Source of the DNA: Thermoplasmatota archaeon
GTDB lineage: Archaea > Thermoplasmatota > SW-10-69-26 > JACQPN01 > JAIVGT01
Direction of reading: 5' to 3'
Length of the DNA stretch: 64,000 nt
Assembly: GCA_035541015.1 (NCBI GenBank)
Contig: DATLFM010000097.1
Location: 719 to 64,718, forward strand
Shown: in pieces, positions 19,858 to 51,876 of the stretch
Numbering within the stretch: position 1 is the stretch's first letter
How the letters are laid out: every line of letters begins with the position of its first letter
Made by a program: the position numbers and the translations under genes
The notes under the pieces: generated by a model
The model's database searches: none
Seen by the model: only the letters and a program-made list of their open reading frames with translations
What the model was told of the DNA's origin: nothing

Positions 19858-20667
19858 ATGCGAGCGCGCGGATCGTTGCTTGCCCTGCTCGGTTGCCTTG
19901 CCCTCGTCGCCCTGCCCACGGCCTCCGCCGGCCCCTTCGAGGACGTTCCGGGCCTCGTCGAGGACGCCCGCGCGCTCGCGTGCGGAACCGCCGGCGGCGC
20001 GCCCGTCGCCGGCGACACGCTGCAGGAGCTTGGCGTCTGCGAACCGCCCGGCTCGCCCGACGTGCCACCGCCCGAAGTTCCGGCCGAGGCGGAGGCGCCC
20101 CTTGCGGACGAGGCCGCCGAGGTCGCCGACGAGATCGTCGGCGCCGCGCTTGGCGCCGTCGACGCCATCCGTGAAAACCCCGCGGACGCCCCAAACGCGC
20201 TCGCCGCGTTCCTCGAAGCCGTCGTGGCCGCCCTCGGCAAGCTCTTCGACGCCGCGGCCCAAGCGCTGGGCCTTGCCGCAAGCCTGCCCCTTGCGGCCGC
20301 CGACCTTGGAAGGGGCGCGCTCTCCGCCGTCGCCGACGCGCTAGCGGGCGCAGCCGACGGGCTTGCGACCGCCGCCTCCGGCGGAGCGCAATCCGTCGCC
20401 GACGCAGCCTCGGGCGCCACCCGATCGGTCGCCGGCGCGGCCGGCGCAACCGCGGACGGGCTCGCCTCCGGGCTTCACGCCATTGCCGACGGCGTCGCTT
20501 CGGCCGCGCGCGCGGTCGCCGACGCCGTCGCCTCCCTCTTTGCCGCCTCCCAGCCTCCGGCGCCCGGCGGGAACGCTCCGCTCCCCGTGGAGCTTCCCGC
20601 CGCGCGCGGGCTTCCCTCGTCCCTTCTCGACGAGGTCGGCCGGACGGTCGACGGGCTTGCGCCGTGA
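19858..20667 (+). CDS. Secreted alanine-rich low-complexity protein
   Basis: The signal peptide is MRARGSLLALLGCLALVALPTASAGP. It is followed by about 240 aa of Ala/Gly/Asp-rich helical repeats. Confidence 0.45.
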   Translation: MRARGSLLALLGCLALVALPTASAGPFEDVPGLVEDARALACGTAGGAPVAGDTLQELGVCEPPGSPDVPPPEVPAEAEAPLADEAAEVADEIVGAALGAVDAIRENPADAPNALAAFLEAVVAALGKLFDAAAQALGLAASLPLAAADLGRGALSAVADALAGAADGLATAASGGAQSVADAASGATRSVAGAAGATADGLASGLHAIADGVASAARAVADAVASLFAASQPPAPGGNAPLPVELPAARGLPSSLLDEVGRTVDGLAP

Positions 20668-20696
20668 TGTATACGGAGGTATACGTTTGTATACAT
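20667..20696. repeat. Array of three GTATAC hexamers at exact 10-bp phasing (ATGTATAC-GGAG-GTATAC-GTTT-GTATACAT) in the 36-bp gap between convergent genes
   Basis: Read directly: GTATAC at 20669, 20679 and 20689. The outer half-sites ATGTATAC and GTATACAT are inverted repeats. The element is AT-rich in a 70% GC genome. Confidence 0.7.
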
Positions 20697-20703
20697 CGCC
20701 CGA

Positions 20704-21585
20704 CTAGCGCGAAAGCCCGCGCGCCGCGCGCACCGTGTTTGCAAGCAACATGGCGATCGTCATGGGCCCCACGCCGCCGGGCACGGGCGTGATCGCTGAA
20801 GCGACCTTCGAGACCTCCTCGAAGGCGACGTCGCCCACGATGCGCGATCCCTTCGGGTGGGAAGGATCGGCCACGCGGTTGATGCCGACGTCCACGACGA
20901 CCGCGCCGGGCTTCACGTGGCGCGCGCGGACGAACTCCGGCTGGCCCATGGCCGCGACGAGGACGTCGGCCTCGCGCGTCGCTTGCTCGAGGTTTGGGGT
21001 GCGGCTGTGGCAGACGGTTACGGTCGCGTCGCCGCCGCGGCCCTTGCCGAGAAGGAGCACCGAGAGAGGTTTGCCGACGATGTTGCCGCGGCCGAGGACG
21101 GCCACGCGCTTTCCTTGCGGCGAGTGGCCGTTTCGTTCGAGGAGCTCGACGACGCCGGCCGGCGTGCACGGGACAAAGCCGGGGCGTCCGGCGAGCAGGC
21201 GGCCGAGGTTCTCGTGCGTGAAGCCGTCCACGTCCTTTCGCGGATCGAGCGTTGCGAGGACGGCCTCCTCGGAGATCTGCGGCGGAAGCGGGAGCTGGAC
21301 GAGGATGCCGTGCACGGCGGGGTCCGCGTTGAGGGCGCGCAGGACGGCCAGAAGCTCGGCCTCGGTCGTCGCGGCGGGGAGGCGTCGCGTGCCGTGCTCG
21401 ATGCCCACTTCGGCGCACGCCTTGTTTTTGTTCTCCACGTAGACGACGCTTGCGGCGTTGTCGCCGACGAGCACGAACTGGAGGTTCGGGACGACGCCCT
21501 GCGCGCGGAGGGTTTCGACGTCCTTGCGGATCTCCGCGCGCATCGTGGCCGCGAGGGCTTTTCCGTCGAGGATGCGCGCTCCCAT
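20704..21585 (-). CDS. folD: Bifunctional methylenetetrahydrofolate dehydrogenase/cyclohydrolase
   Basis: 293 aa, MGARILDGKALA...ILVQLPLP...GRGNIVGKP, the canonical FolD pattern. Confidence 0.9.
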   Translation of the reverse strand: MGARILDGKALAATMRAEIRKDVETLRAQGVVPNLQFVLVGDNAASVVYVENKNKACAEVGIEHGTRRLPAATTEAELLAVLRALNADPAVHGILVQLPLPPQISEEAVLATLDPRKDVDGFTHENLGRLLAGRPGFVPCTPAGVVELLERNGHSPQGKRVAVLGRGNIVGKPLSVLLLGKGRGGDATVTVCHSRTPNLEQATREADVLVAAMGQPEFVRARHVKPGAVVVDVGINRVADPSHPKGSRIVGDVAFEEVSKVASAITPVPGGVGPMTIAMLLANTVRAARGLSR

Positions 21586-34973: not shown

Positions 34974-35507
34974 TTGGACCTGCGACCCGTCGTCGCCTTC
35001 GGCGACAGCCACACGGAAGGCATCGGAGCGATTCCCGAGCGCGCGTACCCCGCCGTGCTCGAACGGCTGCTTGGCGTGCCCGTCGAAAACGCGGGCTGGC
35101 GGGGCGAGACGGCCTTCGAAGCCCTCTCCCGCCTCCCGCAGGAGGTGCTCGATCGCGACCCGCGCCTCGTGCTCGTCGAGTTCGGCGGAAACGAAGCGCT
35201 GCGCGGGGAACCCGTCGAGCGCGCGCTTTCCGGCCTCGACGCCATCCTCGCGGAGCTCTCCTCCCGACGCGTCCCGACGATCCTCGTCGGCGTCACCATT
35301 CCTGAATACGGAAGCGCGTGGGACGACGGGCTGCGCGCGCTTGCGATCCGCCACGACGCGGAGCTTGTCCTCCACGCACTCGACGGCATCCTTGGCGACC
35401 CCGCGTGCACGAGCGACGACGAATGGCACCTGAACGCGAACGGCTACCGCAAGCTCGCGGAACGGCTGGCGCCGGTCGTCGAGAAGGCGCTCGAACGGGC
35501 GCGATGA
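34974..35507 (+). CDS. SGNH/GDSL-family hydrolase (lipase/esterase)
   Basis: The block-I GDS motif is VAFGDSHTEG. The block-V DxxH is SDDEWHLN. The likely start is TTG at 34974, in frame within ORF 34347..35507. Confidence 0.7.
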   Translation: MDLRPVVAFGDSHTEGIGAIPERAYPAVLERLLGVPVENAGWRGETAFEALSRLPQEVLDRDPRLVLVEFGGNEALRGEPVERALSGLDAILAELSSRRVPTILVGVTIPEYGSAWDDGLRALAIRHDAELVLHALDGILGDPACTSDDEWHLNANGYRKLAERLAPVVEKALERAR

Positions 35508-35539
35508 ATGATCATCGCAGTGCGATGAATGATCATCGC
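35501..35539 (+). repeat. Tandem direct repeat, 2 copies of GCGATGAATGATCATCGC with 21-bp period
   Basis: The copies are at 35501..35518 and 35522..35539. The first copy contains the SGNH stop codon. Each unit contains the palindrome ATGATCAT. Confidence 0.8.
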
Positions 35540-35666: not shown

Positions 35667-35692
35667 CTCGGTCGCTTCGCTCCCTCGAAAAA

Positions 35693-35775
35693 CGTGGGCG
35701 CGGGGATTTGAACCCCGGAGTCCATGAGACACAGGATTAGCAATCCTGCGCCCTACCAGGCTAGGCGACGCCCAC
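35693..35775 (-). tRNA. tRNA-Ser (anticodon GCU) with a long variable arm
   Basis: Folded manually. The acceptor stem is GTGGGCG/CGCCCAC, the D-arm GCCT-AGCCTGGTA-GGGC, the anticodon stem CAGGA/TCCTG with loop TTGCTAA, the 14-nt variable arm stem GTC/GAC and the T-arm CGGGG-TTCAAAT-CCCCG. No encoded CCA. T5 lies immediately 3'. Confidence 0.85.
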
Positions 35776-36041
35776 AATCCAAAGCGGCGCTCGAATGCAG
35801 GCTCTCGCTATTAAAACAACGCGGTGGTCGGTTCCTCCTCGCGGTGACAGGGAATCCCTTAATGCCCGCCCGTTCAACGTCAGGCCAACGCTTGCGCTGC
35901 AAGCGCCAACGACACCAACAGCCCCGACCAAAAACGAGGCGGCGACCTCGTTGGCTCCCCCGGGCCGCACCCCGGGGGAGCGTCCCACTCCTTCCCGCGC
36001 GCAAGCGGCAGCCCTTTTTGCGCCCGCGCCGTTTGCCCCGC

Positions 36042-47483: not shown

Positions 47484-47849
47484 CTAGAGTTCCCACGCTT
47501 CGCCGGCCCTCACAAGAGGCTCGTCCTCCCCGCCGCTTGCGACCTGCGGCGCCTCCTCAAGGCCGACGCTCTCGACGAGGGCCTTCAGCGAAGCAAGGTA
47601 GGCGTGGAACGCCTCGATTCCCCGCGGCGTGATCCGAAACCGCACCTCAAACGAAAGGTCCGCCAACACGCGCGAACTCTCCAGAAAGCCCGCTTCCTCC
47701 AGCTTGGCCGCATGGCTCGCGAGGTTTCCGCTCGTTAGCCCAAGTCCCCTCTGAAGGACCACGAACGAAGCCTGACGATTCCGGTACAACGCCGCAAGGA
47801 TGCGCAGACGTTGCGGCTGATGGATCACAGGATCGATCGCTGGGAGCAC
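47484..47849 (-). CDS. Winged-helix transcriptional regulator (ArsR/PadR-like)
   Basis: 121 aa. The segment QRLRILAALYRNRQASFVVLQRGLGLTSGNLASHAAKLEEAGFL is a wHTH. It is convergent with atpA. Confidence 0.55.
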   Translation of the reverse strand: MLPAIDPVIHQPQRLRILAALYRNRQASFVVLQRGLGLTSGNLASHAAKLEEAGFLESSRVLADLSFEVRFRITPRGIEAFHAYLASLKALVESVGLEEAPQVASGGEDEPLVRAGEAWEL

Positions 47850-48829: not shown

Positions 48830-49801
48830 CTAGGAGATCGTCAGCATCGCCTGGTACGTCGCCGAGACGCCCGAGCCCAACGGCGCGGACGAGGACAACC
48901 GCACCGAAAGCTCGTACGCTCCCGGCGCCCGCAGGTCGTAGCGCGCGTAGGTCACGCGGCCCGAGGCTTGCGAGGTCGTCGGAGCGATCTCGGAGCCGCC
49001 AAGCAGGATCGAGAACTGCGCGGAGTCGGTCGGAAGCGATCCGCCGTACTGGAACGAGACCTCAAGCGTGCGGTCGCCGGGGCCCACCTCGAAGGAATGG
49101 CTGTCCCGCGGCCGCACCGCGTCCACCGTTCCCTGGAACTGCAGCACGCGCGCCTGCGGCGGCGGGGGATCGATGGGCGGGATCGTGAAGTTGCGGTCGC
49201 CCGTCACGCGATTGAGCACGTCGCCTGCGCGCGCGCCCAGCGTCGCGATCGCAAACCGCCCGCGCTCGCGGCTCTCCGCGTGCACGGACCACACGGGGTC
49301 CGACGCGGCGTCGGGCATGGCAAGCACCAGGAACATCCGCGCGTCGGCGGCCTCCACGATCGTCTGGAACTCGGCGTCCGCGCGCGCGATCTCGACGGCG
49401 CGCGTGCTGTCGACCTCCCAGCGGGCGAGGGGGACCTTGGGCATCTGGGGACCCGGCCCGTAGTCGGATCCGGCCGCAAGGACGGTGCCGTTGCGGAACG
49501 CCATCGTCACGAACGTCGCGTTGGCGCCGGCGCTGTACCAGAGGACCTGCCAGGCCGTCGCGCGCCCGTCGCCCACGTTTGGGTCCTCCTCCATGCGCAC
49601 GGAGAAGCCGGGCATCTCGAAGAGATCGCCGCGCATCTCGGCGCCGGCAAGCGCGACCGGCTGCGCGTCGCCCTGCCATTCGCGCGCTCGCGACTCGCTT
49701 CGGGCCACGGCGTCCTTGGCGGTGATCCCCGCGTCGGAGCCGCCCAGGCAACCGGCGACGAAGGATCCGACGAAGAGCAAGGCGACGAGGGCGTGGCGCA
49801 T
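48830..49801 (-). CDS. Secreted hypothetical lipoprotein
   Basis: The N-terminus MRHALVALLFVGSFVAGCLGG has a lipobox VAGC. No catalytic motif is recognized. Confidence 0.5.
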   Translation of the reverse strand: MRHALVALLFVGSFVAGCLGGSDAGITAKDAVARSESRAREWQGDAQPVALAGAEMRGDLFEMPGFSVRMEEDPNVGDGRATAWQVLWYSAGANATFVTMAFRNGTVLAAGSDYGPGPQMPKVPLARWEVDSTRAVEIARADAEFQTIVEAADARMFLVLAMPDAASDPVWSVHAESRERGRFAIATLGARAGDVLNRVTGDRNFTIPPIDPPPPQARVLQFQGTVDAVRPRDSHSFEVGPGDRTLEVSFQYGGSLPTDSAQFSILLGGSEIAPTTSQASGRVTYARYDLRAPGAYELSVRLSSSAPLGSGVSATYQAMLTIS

Positions 49802-49849
49802 GCGGCGGCAATCGTGCGGGCGACCGTGAAGCTTTCCACCGGACGCGCG

Positions 49850-49877
49850 ATGTATACGTACGTATACATCCGTATGC
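49850..49877. repeat. Perfect 20-bp palindrome ATGTATACGTACGTATACAT plus a third degenerate hexamer. Together they give three GTATAC-like units at 10-bp phasing in a divergent intergenic region.
   Basis: GTATAC is at 49852 and 49862, and GTATGC at 49872. The palindrome spans 49850..49869. It lies between the lipoprotein gene (minus, start 49801) and aguB (plus, start 49911). Confidence 0.75.
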
Positions 49878-49910
49878 GTCGGACGTGCGGGGCGCCCGCC
49901 GCGCGGACGT

Positions 49911-50822
49911 TTGCTGCGGAACGCTTATGCCGGCGCGTTCGTTCGAGTCGCGATGAGCCCGACCGTGCGCGTGGCCCTGCTCCAGACGCACGCAAGCGCG
50001 GACCCCGAGGACAACCTTCGCCGCACGCTTGCGCTTGCGCGCGAGGCGGCCGCCCGCGGCGCGAAGATCGTCTGTCTGCAGGAGCTGTACCGGACGGAGT
50101 ACTTCCCGCGCGAGGAGAGCCAGGCGAACTTCCGACTCGCCGAGACGATCCCGGGGCCCAGCACGGAGGCTTTCTCCGCCCTGGCGCGCGAGACGGGCGT
50201 CGTGCTCGTCGTCCCGATCTTCGAGAAGCGCGCGGCCGGGCTTTACCACAACAGCCTCGCCGTGATCGACGCCGACGGGCGCCTCGTTGGCGTCTACCGC
50301 AAGATGCACATCCCCGACGACCCGTGCTTCTTCGAGAAGTTCTACTTCGCGCCCGGCGACACGGGCTTTTGCGCCTTCGACACGCGGTACGGCCGCGTGG
50401 CGGCGCTCATCTGCTGGGATCAGTGGTACCCCGAGGGCGCGCGGCTGGCGGCGCTTGCGGGCGCGCAGTTCCTCTTCTATCCGACCGCGATCGGTTACCA
50501 CCCCAACGACGCGGGCGTGGCGCACGTGCAGCGCGACGCGTGGGAGACGATCCAGCGCTCGCACGCGATCGCAAACGGCGTCTTCGTGGGCGCGGCCAAC
50601 CGCGTGGGGCGCGAGGACGAGGTCGTCTTCTGGGGCGCCTCCTTCGTGGCGGGCCCCTTTGGCGAGGTGCTCGCGCGCGCCTCGCAGGACAAGGAGGAGA
50701 TCCTGCTTGCCGATTGCGATCTTTCGCAGATCGAGAGCGCGCGTCACGGTTGGCCCTTCCTGCGCGACCGGCGCATCGACGCCTACGACGGCCTGACGAA
50801 GAGGTTCCTCGATGCGGCCTAG
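49911..50822 (+). CDS. aguB: N-carbamoylputrescine amidohydrolase (nitrilase-superfamily C-N hydrolase)
   Basis: The sequence VRVALLQT...IVCLQEL...ICWDQWYPE... shows the catalytic Glu-Lys-Cys triad layout. The ORF starts at TTG 49911, and the internal Met at 49953 is the likely start. Confidence 0.8.
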   Translation: MLRNAYAGAFVRVAMSPTVRVALLQTHASADPEDNLRRTLALAREAAARGAKIVCLQELYRTEYFPREESQANFRLAETIPGPSTEAFSALARETGVVLVVPIFEKRAAGLYHNSLAVIDADGRLVGVYRKMHIPDDPCFFEKFYFAPGDTGFCAFDTRYGRVAALICWDQWYPEGARLAALAGAQFLFYPTAIGYHPNDAGVAHVQRDAWETIQRSHAIANGVFVGAANRVGREDEVVFWGASFVAGPFGEVLARASQDKEEILLADCDLSQIESARHGWPFLRDRRIDAYDGLTKRFLDAA

Positions 50823-51876
50823 CGAAGCGCGCAAGGCAAGCCCTCCGGGTCCCACGCCCCGCGAGCTTGGCTACGCCATGCCTGCCGAGTGGGCGCCGCA
50901 GGAGACCGTTTGGCTCGCGTGGCCGCACGATCCGCTCACCTTCCCCGGCCGCATCCCGCAGGTGGAGACGATCTACCACCAGGCCATCCGCGCGCTCACG
51001 CGAAACGGCCGCGTGGACCTTCTCGTGAGCAACGCCGACGAGCGGCAGCGCGTGGAGGCGTGGGCGTCTCGCGAGGGCGTGGGGAACCTCCGGCTGCACG
51101 ACGTCCCGGTGGCCGACGTGTGGATCCGCGACTACGGCCCCACGTTCGTGAGGGGTCCGCGCGGCGTGGCCATGGTCGACTGGCTGTTCAACGCGTGGGG
51201 CGACAAGTACCCGACGCTTCGGCCCGACGGCGTGGTTCCTCGGCTCCTTGCGCCCAAGCTTGGGGTCCCCCGCTTCGAGCCGCAGGTCGTCATGGAGGGC
51301 GGAAGCTTCGACGTGAACGGCGAGGGCGCCGTGCTCACGACCGAGCAGTGCCTTCTCCACGAGAACCGCAACCCGCACCTCTCGCGCGAGCGCATCGAAG
51401 GCGTGCTGCGCGACTTCCTTGGCGCGGAGACGGTCCTTTGGCTGGGCGAGGGCGTCGTGGGGGACGACACGGACGGGCACGTGGACGACGTCGCCCGCTT
51501 CGTCGCGCCCGACACCGTGCTCGCTTGCATGGAAGAGGACCCGCACCATCCCAACCACGCGATCCTCGCCGAGAACGGGAAGCGACTTTCGTCCATGCGC
51601 GATCCGCGCGGGCGCCCGTTCAAGCTCGTTCCGCTTCCCATGCCCGGAGACGTGCTCGACGACGAGGGCGAGCCGCTGCCGGCAAGCTACGCGAACTTCC
51701 TTGTCGCAAACGGCGTCGTGCTGCTGCCCGTGTTCGGGCACGCCAACGACGAGCGCGCCGTCCGCACGCTCGAAGCCTGCTTCCCGGACCGCGCCGTCGT
51801 CCCCCTGCGGTGCGAGGACATGGTCCACGGCATGGGCACGCTGCATTGCGCAAGCCAACAGCAGCCCGCCGCGTGA
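50812..51876 (+). CDS. aguA: Agmatine deiminase (PAD-type)
   Basis: RELGYAMPAEWAPQETVWLAWPH... and the C-terminal catalytic Cys in ...HGMGTLHCASQQQP are present. It overlaps the aguB end by 11 bp. Confidence 0.85.
   Translation: MRPSEARKASPPGPTPRELGYAMPAEWAPQETVWLAWPHDPLTFPGRIPQVETIYHQAIRALTRNGRVDLLVSNADERQRVEAWASREGVGNLRLHDVPVADVWIRDYGPTFVRGPRGVAMVDWLFNAWGDKYPTLRPDGVVPRLLAPKLGVPRFEPQVVMEGGSFDVNGEGAVLTTEQCLLHENRNPHLSRERIEGVLRDFLGAETVLWLGEGVVGDDTDGHVDDVARFVAPDTVLACMEEDPHHPNHAILAENGKRLSSMRDPRGRPFKLVPLPMPGDVLDDEGEPLPASYANFLVANGVVLLPVFGHANDERAVRTLEACFPDRAVVPLRCEDMVHGMGTLHCASQQQPAA

What the first reader, a model, noticed from the sequence alone, without database searches (positions are those of the whole stretch)
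20667..20696. Second GTATAC x3 array (10-bp phasing) located between convergent genes, immediately after a stop codon
ATGTATAC-GGAG-GTATAC-GTTT-GTATACAT begins on the last base of the TGA of the Ala-rich secreted-protein gene and ends 8 bp before the folD stop. Both flanking genes end here, so the array cannot be a promoter for either. It may be a promoter for an unannotated antisense or ncRNA, a termination or insulator protein binding site, or a regulator operator acting at a distance. The outer half-sites are identical to those of the 49850 palindrome, ATGTATAC and GTATACAT in inverted orientation. This shared design at two unrelated loci argues for a dedicated DNA-binding protein.
Basis: seen in the sequence. 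Interest (0 to 1): 0.6.

Follow-up and report, generated by a model that had tools for sequence, protein, structure and literature searches.

The report
Dispersed 32-bp triple-palindrome gene-end element
The GTATAC x3 array is one copy of a previously undescribed 32-bp element (three tandem 10-bp palindromes) scattered through this uncultured Thermoplasmatota archaeon's genome, mostly wedged between the stop codons of convergent genes; it is built like the operator of toxin-antitoxin operons and is most likely a docking site for three dimers of a DNA-binding protein.

Summary
All five GTATAC sites in the 64-kb window lie in the two arrays (0.41 expected by chance).

Both arrays are full copies of one 32-bp element, G-[A-Y-GTATAC-R-T]x3-C, at 20666-20697 and 49849-49880. 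The "49850 palindrome" also has a third unit, GTATGC.

A metagenome scan found the same organism (99.9% identical contig) plus 11 further copies. That makes 13 copies in 154 kb, each scoring 52-59 bits, with no partial copies.
- Ten copies abut a stop codon.
- Seven fill the gap between convergent housekeeping genes.
- The closest relative keeps the folD/Ala-rich gene pair with a 2-bp gap and no element, so copies look like discrete insertions.
- Spacers do not covary and hairpins are weak, which points to a double-stranded DNA site for three dimers on one helix face.

The same GTATAC x3, 10-bp-phased array is the promoter-operator of DUF7557-ParE/RelE toxin-antitoxin operons in 20 archaeal loci. 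It also resembles the F-plasmid ccd operator bound by the ribbon-helix-helix (RHH) antitoxin CcdA. However, the flanking bases differ (Y..R here, R..Y there) and no cognate protein was found.

Verdict: a new dispersed protein-binding element at gene ends. Its role (roadblock or insulator versus a selfish REP-like element) is unresolved.

The parts
20666..20697 (.). Element copy 1: GATGTATACGGAGGTATACGTTTGTATACATC. It has three 10-bp units (20667-20676, 20677-20686, 20687-20696) flanked by G and C.
   Evidence: PWM score 53.3 bits against a maximum of 3.5 in shuffles. Identical in L001 and L146.
49849..49880 (.). Element copy 2: GATGTATACGTACGTATACATCCGTATGCGTC. Its units are ATGTATACGT, ACGTATACAT and CCGTATGCGT; the third hexamer is GTATGC.
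   Evidence: PWM score 52.5 bits. Identical in L162 and L163. Paired with copy 1 by the repeat finder (I10).
19858..20667 (+). Ala-rich secreted protein gene (269 aa, no Pfam family). Its TGA stop (20665-20667) overlaps the first two bases of copy 1.
   Evidence: A homolog (36% identity in the N-terminal part) is convergent with folD in relative L002.
20704..21585 (-). folD (methylene-THF dehydrogenase/cyclohydrolase). Its stop codon lies 6 bp beyond the right end of copy 1.
   Evidence: PF00763 and PF02882. Gene call in L001.
48830..49801 (-). Lipoprotein-like gene of unknown function. Copy 2 lies 47 bp upstream of its ATG, which is about -43 to -74 if the BRE/TATA-like GGAAAGCTTC at 49828-49837 is its promoter.
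   Evidence: The promoter reading is inferred from the sequence.
49953..50822 (+). Carbon-nitrogen hydrolase (N-carbamoylputrescine amidase-like), followed by agmatine deiminase (50812-51876). Copy 2 ends 72 bp upstream of the ATG. Its own TATA-like GCTTATGC (centre about 49926) sits at about -27.
   Evidence: (gene call of 289 aa).

Best explanation
The array is one copy of a lineage-specific, dispersed 32-bp DNA element, G-[A-Y-G-T-A-T-A-C-R-T]x3-C.

What is shown:
- The organism (a 69% GC Candidatus Thermoplasmatota MAG) carries at least 13 complete copies in 154 kb.
- Every copy has exactly three units.
- Copies occur as discrete insertions, mostly exactly between the stop codons of convergent housekeeping genes.
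- The hexamers and their Y/R flanks are conserved while the spacer centres vary.

What is inferred (mechanism): each 10-bp dyad-symmetric unit is bound as double-stranded DNA by one dimer of a sequence-specific protein. The exact 10-bp phase puts three dimers on one face of the helix, where they bind cooperatively or are bridged by a partner. RHH antitoxins behave this way on GTATAC-triplet operators. Examples are CcdA on the F-plasmid ccd operator and, by inference, DUF7557 antitoxins on the archaeal TA operators found here.

What is inferred more weakly (role): sitting at gene ends, the bound array acts as a bidirectional roadblock or insulator between abutting transcription units. Alternatively it is simply tolerated there, like bacterial REP elements. 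The copies spread by a copy-and-insert process.
For: Family and specificity
- All 5 GTATAC sites of the window are in the two arrays (0.41 expected).
- The metagenome scan returned 38 loci, 11 of them from one sample. One of these (L146) is 99.93% identical to the window.
- Positions 20-32 of the element were not part of the search pattern, yet the third hexamer plus RTC is present in 13 of 13 copies.
- The PWM gives 52-59 bits for the members. Nothing independent scores between 12 and 50 bits in 154 kb.

DNA-site signature
- Bases flanking the hexamers are Y at -1 (38/39) and R at +1 (39/39).
- The third hexamer shows 4 of 78 substitutions, against 19 of 52 deviations in spacer 2.
- Spacer pairs do not covary. 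Single-strand DNA hairpins are only -5 to -7 kcal/mol, and the two window copies fold differently.

Location
- 10 of 13 copies abut a stop codon within 15 bp, and 7 of 13 lie in convergent gaps (P = 0.024 against a 25% null).
- The neighbours are real, unrelated genes: ProC, PdxT, MutY, polyprenyl synthase, ArsA and a permease.
- The orthologous folD/Ala-rich gap in relative L002 is 2 bp with no GTATAC.

Precedent for protein binding
- 20 of 25 archaeal loci in the genome scan have GTATAC x3 at 10-bp phase between a TATA box and the ATG of a DUF7557 gene. In 15 of these a PF05016 ParE/RelE toxin follows directly.
- The centre of the F-plasmid ccd operator is three GTATAC palindromes bound by RHH CcdA dimers that are bridged by CcdB (PMC5389731; sequence).
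Against: - No binding protein was identified. There is no DUF7557, RelE, RHH or transposase candidate in the 154 kb available.
- In bacteria, GTATAC arrays sit next to GntR/HutC, XRE-S24, wHTH and RHH-like genes, so the motif does not name a protein family.
- The RHH fold of DUF7557 itself is only inferred. The AF2 monomer has pLDDT 58, there is no PDB homolog, and hhalign against CcdA is not significant.
- Only about 1 in 10 convergent pairs in the window carries an element, so it is not a general termination device.
- Enrichment at convergent gaps is also what purifying selection on a selfish insertion would produce.
- All copies come from one strain-level population, and only about 5% of a genome was seen.
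Confidence: 0.55

Rival explanations
1. It is a selfish REP/MITE-like mini-element. The 32-bp unit with 9-bp inverted ends is mobilised by a transposase encoded elsewhere. Copies survive only where insertion is harmless (gaps between convergent genes), and the element has no host function.
For: - The insertion is discrete and is absent from the orthologous gap in relative L002.
- It is multi-copy and lineage-specific.
- It has inverted ends GAYGTATAC...GTATRCRTC.
- It is enriched at gene 3' ends, as bacterial REPs are.
- The neighbouring genes have no functional theme.
Against: - There is no target-site duplication and no conserved target (flanks).
- No transposase or RAYT was found in 154 kb, and the design has no viral copies.
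- The hairpin is weak and inconsistent, unlike GC-rich REP stems.
- There are no decayed or partial copies.
- Spacers vary while hexamers stay intact. This looks like selection on each copy rather than a recent burst.
Confidence: 0.2
2. The copies are secondary (decoy or regulon) binding sites of a DUF7557-ParE/RelE toxin-antitoxin complex encoded elsewhere in this genome. The reader would be the same protein that autoregulates the TA operon.
For: - The architecture is identical (three GTATAC at exact 10-bp phase) to the TA promoter-operators in 20 archaeal loci. These include Thermoplasmatota (L003, L068).
- The family is large and archaeal, with at least 2041 clusters.
- In the CcdA precedent, specificity comes mainly from equally spaced multivalent sites.
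Against: - The flanks are systematically opposite: Y-GTATAC-R here against R-GTATAC-Y in the TA operators.
- There is no TA gene in the 154 kb available.
- Dozens of decoy sites would titrate an autoregulator.
Confidence: 0.1
3. The element works at the RNA or single-strand level. It would be a palindromic 3'-UTR hairpin acting as a bidirectional terminator or as an mRNA-stabilising stem-loop for both convergent transcripts.
For: - It lies directly after stop codons and in convergent gaps.
- The whole element is palindromic, and RNA folds reach -7.5 to -14 kcal/mol.
Against: - There is no compensatory variation. Spacer pairs match only about half the time, and positions 3/30 mismatch in 5 of 13 copies.
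- The symmetry lies within each 10-bp unit, which an RNA hairpin does not need.
- The two window copies fold into different topologies.
- There is no T/U tract of the kind archaeal termination uses.
- Three copies sit in 5' regions.
- There is no Rfam match.
Confidence: 0.08
4. It is a promoter (TATA-like boxes) for an antisense or non-coding RNA, or a structural DNA feature. Possible structural roles are positioning of a 30-bp histone dimer, or Z-DNA from the almost perfect purine-pyrimidine alternation.
For: - Each hexamer contains TATA.
- It is the only AT-rich island in the gap.
- 23-29 of 31 steps alternate purine and pyrimidine.
- 30 bp with 10-bp periodic TA steps matches one archaeal histone-dimer footprint. 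This point rests on general knowledge and was not tested.
Against: - This organism's promoters use TTTATAA/TATAAAA-type boxes with a BRE.
- There is no downstream gene or RNA family.
- Exact conservation of G, T, A, T, A, C at every position is far more than shape-based positioning or Z-DNA would need.
- AT-rich alternating tracts are poor Z-formers.
Confidence: 0.05
5. It is a chance AT-rich remnant.
For: The array is absent from the nearest relative.
Against: - The window holds 5 GTATAC sites against 0.41 expected.
- Thirteen copies score 52-59 bits against a maximum of 3.5 in shuffles.
- The half of the element that was not searched for is conserved in 13 of 13 copies.
Confidence: 0.01

Closest known systems
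F-plasmid ccdAB promoter-operator, bound by the RHH antitoxin CcdA and bridged by CcdB
   Same: - It has three short GTATAC palindromes about one helical turn apart.
- Each is bound by an antitoxin dimer through the major groove.
- Affinity and specificity arise from multivalent, equally spaced sites (PMC5389731).
   Different: - In ccd only one palindrome is perfect. The spacing is about 11-12 bp in the copy I read, and the three sites sit inside a 113-bp, 8-site operator at a promoter.
- Here there are three near-perfect hexamers at exactly 10 bp, a fixed 32-bp length, many dispersed copies, mostly at gene 3' ends, and no adjacent TA genes.
Promoter-operators of archaeal DUF7557-ParE/RelE toxin-antitoxin operons
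   Same: They have exactly three GTATAC at 10-bp phase, and they occur in archaea including Thermoplasmatota.
   Different: - Those arrays lie between a BRE/TATA box and the antitoxin ATG, and they read R-GTATAC-Y.
- The window elements have no TATA and no TA genes, read Y-GTATAC-R, carry conserved G...C termini, and are multi-copy.
Bacterial REP/BIME elements
   Same: They are short (about 35 bp) palindromic, multi-copy, extragenic elements concentrated after genes and between convergent genes. They are known protein-binding sites (IHF, gyrase, RAYT). This is established knowledge; see also PMC2817692 and PMC12306157, listed.
   Different: - REPs are GC-rich stable stem-loops with a conserved 5' tetranucleotide and are tied to RAYT transposases.
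- This element is AT-rich and folds weakly.
- It is built of three tandem dyad units.
- It occurs in an archaeon, and no RAYT has been seen.
Tandem-site operators and centromeres of other RHH proteins (MetJ metboxes, Arc/Mnt, omega heptads, ParR/parC iterons)
   Same: Arrays of short repeats are spaced so that successive dimers contact each other on one DNA face, and binding is cooperative. This is established knowledge.
   Different: - The repeat sequences and periods are different (7, 8 or 11 bp).
- They are single-locus arrays at promoters or partition sites, not dispersed 3-unit elements at gene ends.
GntR/HutC-type operators (GT-N-TA-N-AC class)
   Same: A Y-GTATAC-R triple array lies 41 bp upstream of a genuine GntR-UTRA regulator gene in a Chloroflexota MAG (L008).
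   Different: That is a bacterial, single promoter site next to its regulator. No GntR gene was seen in the archaeal sequence available.

Membership tests
DUF7557-ParE/RelE TA promoter-operator | Three GTATAC hexamers at 10-bp phase | tested here: met
   Hexamers start at 20669, 20679 and 20689, and at 49852, 49862 and 49872 (the last is GTATGC).
DUF7557-ParE/RelE TA promoter-operator | The array lies between a BRE/TATA box and the start codon of a DUF7557 gene, usually followed by a PF05016 toxin. | tested here: not met
   No TATA abuts either window copy. hmmsearch of the six-frame window with the antitoxin and toxin HMMs gave no hit at E<=1 or E<=10.
DUF7557-ParE/RelE TA promoter-operator | Hexamer flanks are R at -1 and Y at +1. 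| tested here: not met
   TA operators have R in 50/61 and Y in 48/61 cases. The dispersed elements have Y in 38/39 and R in 39/39.
REP (repetitive extragenic palindrome) elements | Multi-copy, short, extragenic, concentrated at gene 3' ends | tested here: met
   There are 13 copies in 154 kb. Ten abut a stop codon and 7 lie in convergent gaps.
REP (repetitive extragenic palindrome) elements | Stable imperfect stem-loop with compensatory variation | tested here: not met
   Single-strand DNA folds are -5 to -7 kcal/mol, the topologies are inconsistent, and spacers do not covary.
REP (repetitive extragenic palindrome) elements | Associated RAYT / Y1 transposase | not testable with these tools
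   None was found among the coding-like ORFs of the 154 kb available.
MITE | Terminal inverted repeats plus target-site duplication | tested here: not met
   The 9-bp inverted ends are present, but the flanks of the 13 copies show no direct duplication. At 32 bp the element is also far below the usual MITE size.
Intrinsic / archaeal oligo-T terminator | T-run (archaea) or GC-rich hairpin plus T-run (bacteria) at the 3' end | tested here: not met
   No run of at least 4 T occurs in either window copy, and the hairpin is weak and AT-rich.
Archaeal promoter | BRE/TATA about 27 bp upstream of a transcribed gene or RNA | tested here: not met
   Both neighbours of copy 1 end at it. The organism's TATA boxes are of the TTTATAA/TATAAAA type. 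There is no Rfam RNA.
RHH-protein operator array (works-like claim) | Dyad-symmetric subsites spaced one helical turn apart, with an RHH protein shown to bind | tested here: inconclusive
   The geometry is met. Binding was not testable. The RHH fold of the nearest candidate family, DUF7557, is not confirmed. Pfam hits to VapB_antitox fall below the cut-off, the AF2 model has pLDDT 58, and there is no PDB homolog.

The most novel reading that the evidence does not exclude
This Thermoplasmatota lineage has taken a toxin-antitoxin-type operator (three dimer sites on one helix face) and spread it genome-wide, at about one copy per 30 kb in the window. The copies sit at the ends of convergent genes. 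There a small RHH-type protein binds them as bidirectional transcriptional roadblocks or insulators, or as dispersed centromere-like or nucleoid-organising sites. It would be an archaeal, protein-based counterpart of bacterial REP/BIME or parS/matS systems.
Probability: 0.2. Interest if true: 0.8.

Novelty: new variant of a known kind. Interest (0 to 1): 0.58.

Why it matters
Archaeal genomes are tightly packed. In this window, convergent genes overlap or lie no more than 12 bp apart. How archaea end transcription and shield neighbouring genes is poorly understood.

A sequence-defined, multi-copy element placed exactly between stop codons offers a concrete, testable handle on that question. 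One can ask whether it binds a protein and whether transcripts stop there.

It would also be a rare described case of a REP-like dispersed intergenic element in archaea, and one that appears to work as double-stranded DNA rather than as a hairpin.

The by-product is useful in its own right. The large uncharacterised family DUF7557 (at least 2041 clusters) can now be read as the antitoxin of a ParE/RelE module. Its operator (GTATAC x3) is nearly invariant across archaeal phyla, which makes it directly testable by EMSA.

Tried and rejected
- **Conservation at the orthologous locus.** Only one near relative exists (FolD 70% identity, L002). Synteny is kept, the gap is 2 bp, and there is no GTATAC in 5.8 kb. 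The Ala-rich protein has no detectable homologs in the large database.
- **Cognate protein in cis.** HMMs of the array-adjacent antitoxin and toxin, run against the six-frame window and the sister contigs, gave no hits. Inspection of 21 small coding-like ORFs gave no RHH or transposase. The wHTH (HTH_34) gene at 47484-47849, 2 kb from copy 2, was considered, but nothing links it to the element.
- **Tracing a DUF7557 member to this organism.** The profile search returned 2041 hits, but the top 120 cannot be assigned to this organism.
- **Structure of DUF7557.** The AF2 monomer has low confidence (pLDDT 58), so no fold search was run. The PDB profile search and hhalign against CcdA were not significant.
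- **RNA explanations.** An Rfam scan at the locus gave only a sub-threshold Twister-P5 hit inside the coding region. Hairpin and covariation tests were negative.
- **Viral origin.** The full 32-bp design has 0 matches in IMG/VR.
- **A second lineage with a dispersed family.** The other metagenome loci with many GTATAC sites are ordinary mid-GC contigs with isolated sites.
- **CN-hydrolase coincidence.** An array lies next to a CN hydrolase both here and in Lysinibacillus/Ureibacillus. I treated this as chance, because the enzymes differ (the bacterial protein scores only 1e-31 against the generic family) and the gene contexts differ.
- **Restriction-site avoidance (GTATAC = BstZ17I site).** There are 0 sites outside the elements where about 1 is expected, so the test is not informative.
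- **Strain polymorphism.** The ENA, JGI and Logan copies are 99.9-100% identical and give no presence/absence information.
Full report
**1. The observation**

The sequence at 20667-20696 is ATGTATAC-GGAG-GTATAC-GTTT-GTATACAT.
- GTATAC starts at 20669, 20679 and 20689.
- The first A is the last base of the TGA that ends a 269-aa Ala-rich secreted ORF (19858-20667, +; no Pfam family).
- The stop of folD (20704-21585, minus strand; PF00763 and PF02882) lies 8 bp beyond the array.
- GTATAC occurs five times in the 64-kb window, always in this array or in the one near 49850. The expectation is 0.41, and 0 of 100 shuffles reached 5.

First, the two sites share 9-bp inverted ends, GATGTATAC...GTATACATC. 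Second, the 49850 site has a third hexamer, GTATGC, at 49872 in the same phase. Both sites are therefore 32-bp units, at 20666-20697 and 49849-49880. An independent repeat finder also pairs them (I10).

**2. Organism and background**

- The neighbouring genes are archaeal (SRP54, A-type ATPase, aIF6).
- NCBI names the source Candidatus Thermoplasmatota archaeon (HVL88169/HVL88170).
- The window is 69.4% GC.
- Its ordinary promoters are classic BRE/TATA boxes such as TTTATAAGC and ATATAAAG. The GTATAC arrays are a different kind of AT island.
- Convergent genes here overlap or lie at most about 12 bp apart (gene map).

**3. Conservation at the locus**

FolD has one near relative (70% identity). 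That contig keeps folD convergent with a homolog of the Ala-rich protein (36% identity in the N-terminal part). However, the gap there is 2 bp, and the 5.8-kb contig contains no GTATAC. The element therefore looks like a lineage-specific insertion of about 32 bp between two stop codons.

**4. Where else the triple array occurs**

Results for the archaeal loci:
- In 20 of 25, the array lies between a BRE/TATA box, which abuts the first hexamer, and the start codon of a 66-87-aa protein beginning M-x-T-T-I-K. The start codon is -9 to +10 bp from the third hexamer in 19 of these. In L052 the first in-frame start picked was 87 bp away, but its open frame begins upstream of the array.
- These proteins match Pfam DUF7557. 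They also give weak, sub-threshold similarity to VapB-type antitoxins at the N-terminus and to RelB/ParD antitoxins at the C-terminus.
- In 15 loci the next ORF, about 80 aa long, is a PF05016 ParE/RelE toxin.

In archaea, then, the array is the promoter-operator of a type II toxin-antitoxin operon. It is positioned from the TATA box to the transcription start, as a repressor site would be.

The family is large, with at least 2041 clusters, all matching PF24434. It is absent from the literature library.

There is a published precedent. The centre of the F-plasmid ccd operator consists of three GTATAC palindromes. They are bound by dimers of the RHH antitoxin CcdA, which CcdB bridges, and multivalency creates the affinity and specificity (PMC5389731). 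In the ccd promoter I read, the GTATAC-like sites are 11-12 bp apart.

**5. The window arrays belong to a dispersed family**

Neither window array has a TATA box or TA genes, and HMM searches of the six-frame window found neither partner. I scanned metagenomes for the window's specific design in a GC-rich context (SSSS-N-GATGTATAC-N4-GTATAC). The scan gave 38 loci, 11 of them from one JGI sample, Ga0247717.
- One contig (L146) is 99.93% identical to the window and carries copy 1.
- The other ten contigs (GC 0.64-0.73, archaeal genes) carry eleven further copies.
- The half of the element that was not in the search pattern (positions 20-32) shows the third hexamer plus RTC in 13 of 13 copies.

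The consensus is G-[A-Y-GTATAC-R-T]x3-C. A PWM scores the 13 members at 52-59 bits. Nothing independent scores between 12 and 50 bits in 154 kb, and shuffled sequence peaks at 3.5 bits. There are always exactly three units, with no singles, doubles or decayed relics.

The copies are identical in the ENA, JGI and Logan assemblies.

**6. DNA site or hairpin?**

- The hexamers are almost invariant. In the unbiased third hexamer there are 4 substitutions in 78 bases, whereas spacer 2 deviates from its majority base in 19 of 52 positions.
- The bases next to each hexamer are Y at -1 (38/39) and R at +1 (39/39). Each 10-bp unit is therefore dyad-symmetric in itself.
- Spacer 1 and spacer 2 are not complementary, with about half of the pairs matching. 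Positions 3 and 30 mismatch in 5 of 13 copies.
- Single-strand DNA folds are only -5 to -7 kcal/mol. The two window copies fold differently: one pairs unit 1 with unit 3, the other pairs unit 1 with unit 2.
- No Rfam family matches.

This is the signature of a double-stranded site read by symmetric dimers at one-turn spacing. It is not the signature of an RNA or cruciform element.

**7. Location**

- Ten of the 13 copies abut at least one stop codon within 15 bp.
- In six cases the TGA overlaps the element's own GA or sits directly against it.
- Seven copies fill the gap between convergent genes: L124, L151, L152, L153, L157a, L157b and window copy 1.
- L145 sits between a stop codon and the next gene's BRE/TATA.
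- Three copies lie in 5' regions: window copy 2, L149 and L129.
- Against a 25% null for convergent gaps, 7 of 13 gives P = 0.024. Relative to the tiny size of such gaps, the enrichment is much larger; this is a rough estimate from the window's gene map.
- The neighbours are real and unrelated genes, with domains reaching their C-termini: radical-SAM protein, ProC, amino-acid permease, polyprenyl synthase, ArsA, PdxT, cupin and MutY. This does not look like a metabolic regulon.

Window copy 2 lies about -43 to -74 from the lipoprotein-like gene (ATG at 49801, minus strand; BRE/TATA-like GGAAAGCTTC at 49828-49837). It lies -73 to -104 from the CN-hydrolase gene (ATG at 49953; TATA-like GCTTATGC centred near 49926). 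It is therefore outside both core promoters.

**8. Who reads it?**

This is unknown.
- In bacteria, GTATAC arrays lie next to a GntR-UTRA regulator (L008), an HTH-S24 repressor (L086), wHTH proteins (L013, L021), a weak NikA-like RHH candidate (L078) and an uncharacterised small protein in Bacillaceae.
- No candidate was found in the 154 kb available.
- The RHH fold of DUF7557 remains an inference.

**9. Interpretation**

- Shown: this is a dispersed, all-or-none, 32-bp, three-unit element that is inserted at gene ends and has position-specific conservation.
- Inferred, moderately: it is a platform for three dimers of a sequence-specific DNA-binding protein, working like RHH antitoxin operators.
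- Inferred, weakly: it has a roadblock or insulator role between abutting transcription units, and it spreads by copy-and-insert.

The main rival is a purely selfish REP/MITE-like element. That reading is weakened by the absence of a target-site duplication, the weak hairpin, the lack of decayed copies and the varied spacers. It cannot be excluded without the whole genome.

**10. Novelty**

The ingredients are known: GTATAC-triplet RHH operators, and REP-like elements at gene ends. I did not find the combination described anywhere. That combination is an operator-type array dispersed at convergent gene ends in an archaeon.

Noticed in passing
L003 4551-4576, L068, L017, L036, L049, L099, L103, L107, L110, L116 and 10 more loci: Across archaeal phyla (Thermoplasmatota, DPANN groups, Nitrosopumilaceae, Methanosarcinales) the DUF7557 gene is preceded by an almost invariant operator. 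A BRE/TATA box abuts three GTATAC hexamers at 10-bp phase, and the ATG follows within 10 bp. A PF05016 ParE/RelE toxin gene follows in 15 of 20 loci. This identifies DUF7557 as the antitoxin of a widespread archaeal TA module.
   Followed up: yes
L011, L016, L024, L026, L028, L033, L041, L045, L050, L057, L058, L061, L088, L109, L112, L121 (MAG CBDBCZ01, 'Nitrospirales bacterium'): One MAG accounts for 16 of the 120 scan loci, with up to 43 pattern matches (both strands counted) per 8 kb. The matches are long satellite-like tracts of 10-bp GTATACNNNN-type repeats at about 36-44% GC, on several Mb-scale contigs. This is unusual for a bacterial genome and may be contamination or a large tandem-repeat region.
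   Followed up: no
L014, L031, L044, L066, L079, L106 (Lysinibacillus, Ureibacillus, Psychrobacillus, Saccharibacillus and a Bacillota MAG): In Bacillaceae-type genomes a Y-GTATAC-R triple array overlaps the promoter of a conserved small protein of about 100 aa. That protein carries the motif GAKTFRRGRALAF and has no Pfam or NCBIfam family. In three loci the array is divergent from a CN-hydrolase gene. This looks like a separate, uncharacterised regulatory module.
   Followed up: partly
L128, L137, L147 (11105-11120): Three phage-like metagenome contigs share a GTATAC-N4-GTATAC pair 6 bp upstream of a 142-aa ORF. Its N-terminus (IEFCTIRASVGTRTLLKRIAEND) looks like an RHH strand-helix, but it has no Pfam hit.
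   Followed up: partly
window 35504-35536: A direct repeat of ATGAATGATCAT (two copies, 21-bp period) lies about 160 bp from tRNA-Ser(GCT) (35692-35776, minus strand) in an otherwise GC-rich intergenic region.
   Followed up: no
window 20704-21585: Apart from one relative at 70% identity, the best FolD homologs are 58-66% identical. One of the few that carry an organism name is from a bacterium (Gemmatimonadota). This suggests the archaeon acquired folD from bacteria.
   Followed up: no
window 20357-20400 (minus strand): There is a sub-threshold Rfam match to the Twister-P5 ribozyme (21.5 bits against a gathering score of 37.6, E = 0.044). It lies inside the Ala-rich coding region and is most likely chance.
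   Followed up: no
window, convergent gene pairs (e.g. 9825/9838, 18147/18144, 29398/29395, 59500/59504): Convergent genes in this genome overlap by 4 bp or are separated by at most 12 bp, with no room for any terminator signal. How transcription ends there is an open question in itself.
   Followed up: partly
L076 4204-4713 (Pacearchaeota Pace33H, complete genome): In this one locus the ParE/RelE-like ORF lies on the opposite strand, convergent with and abutting the DUF7557 gene instead of following it. This is either a local inversion or a rearranged module.
   Followed up: no
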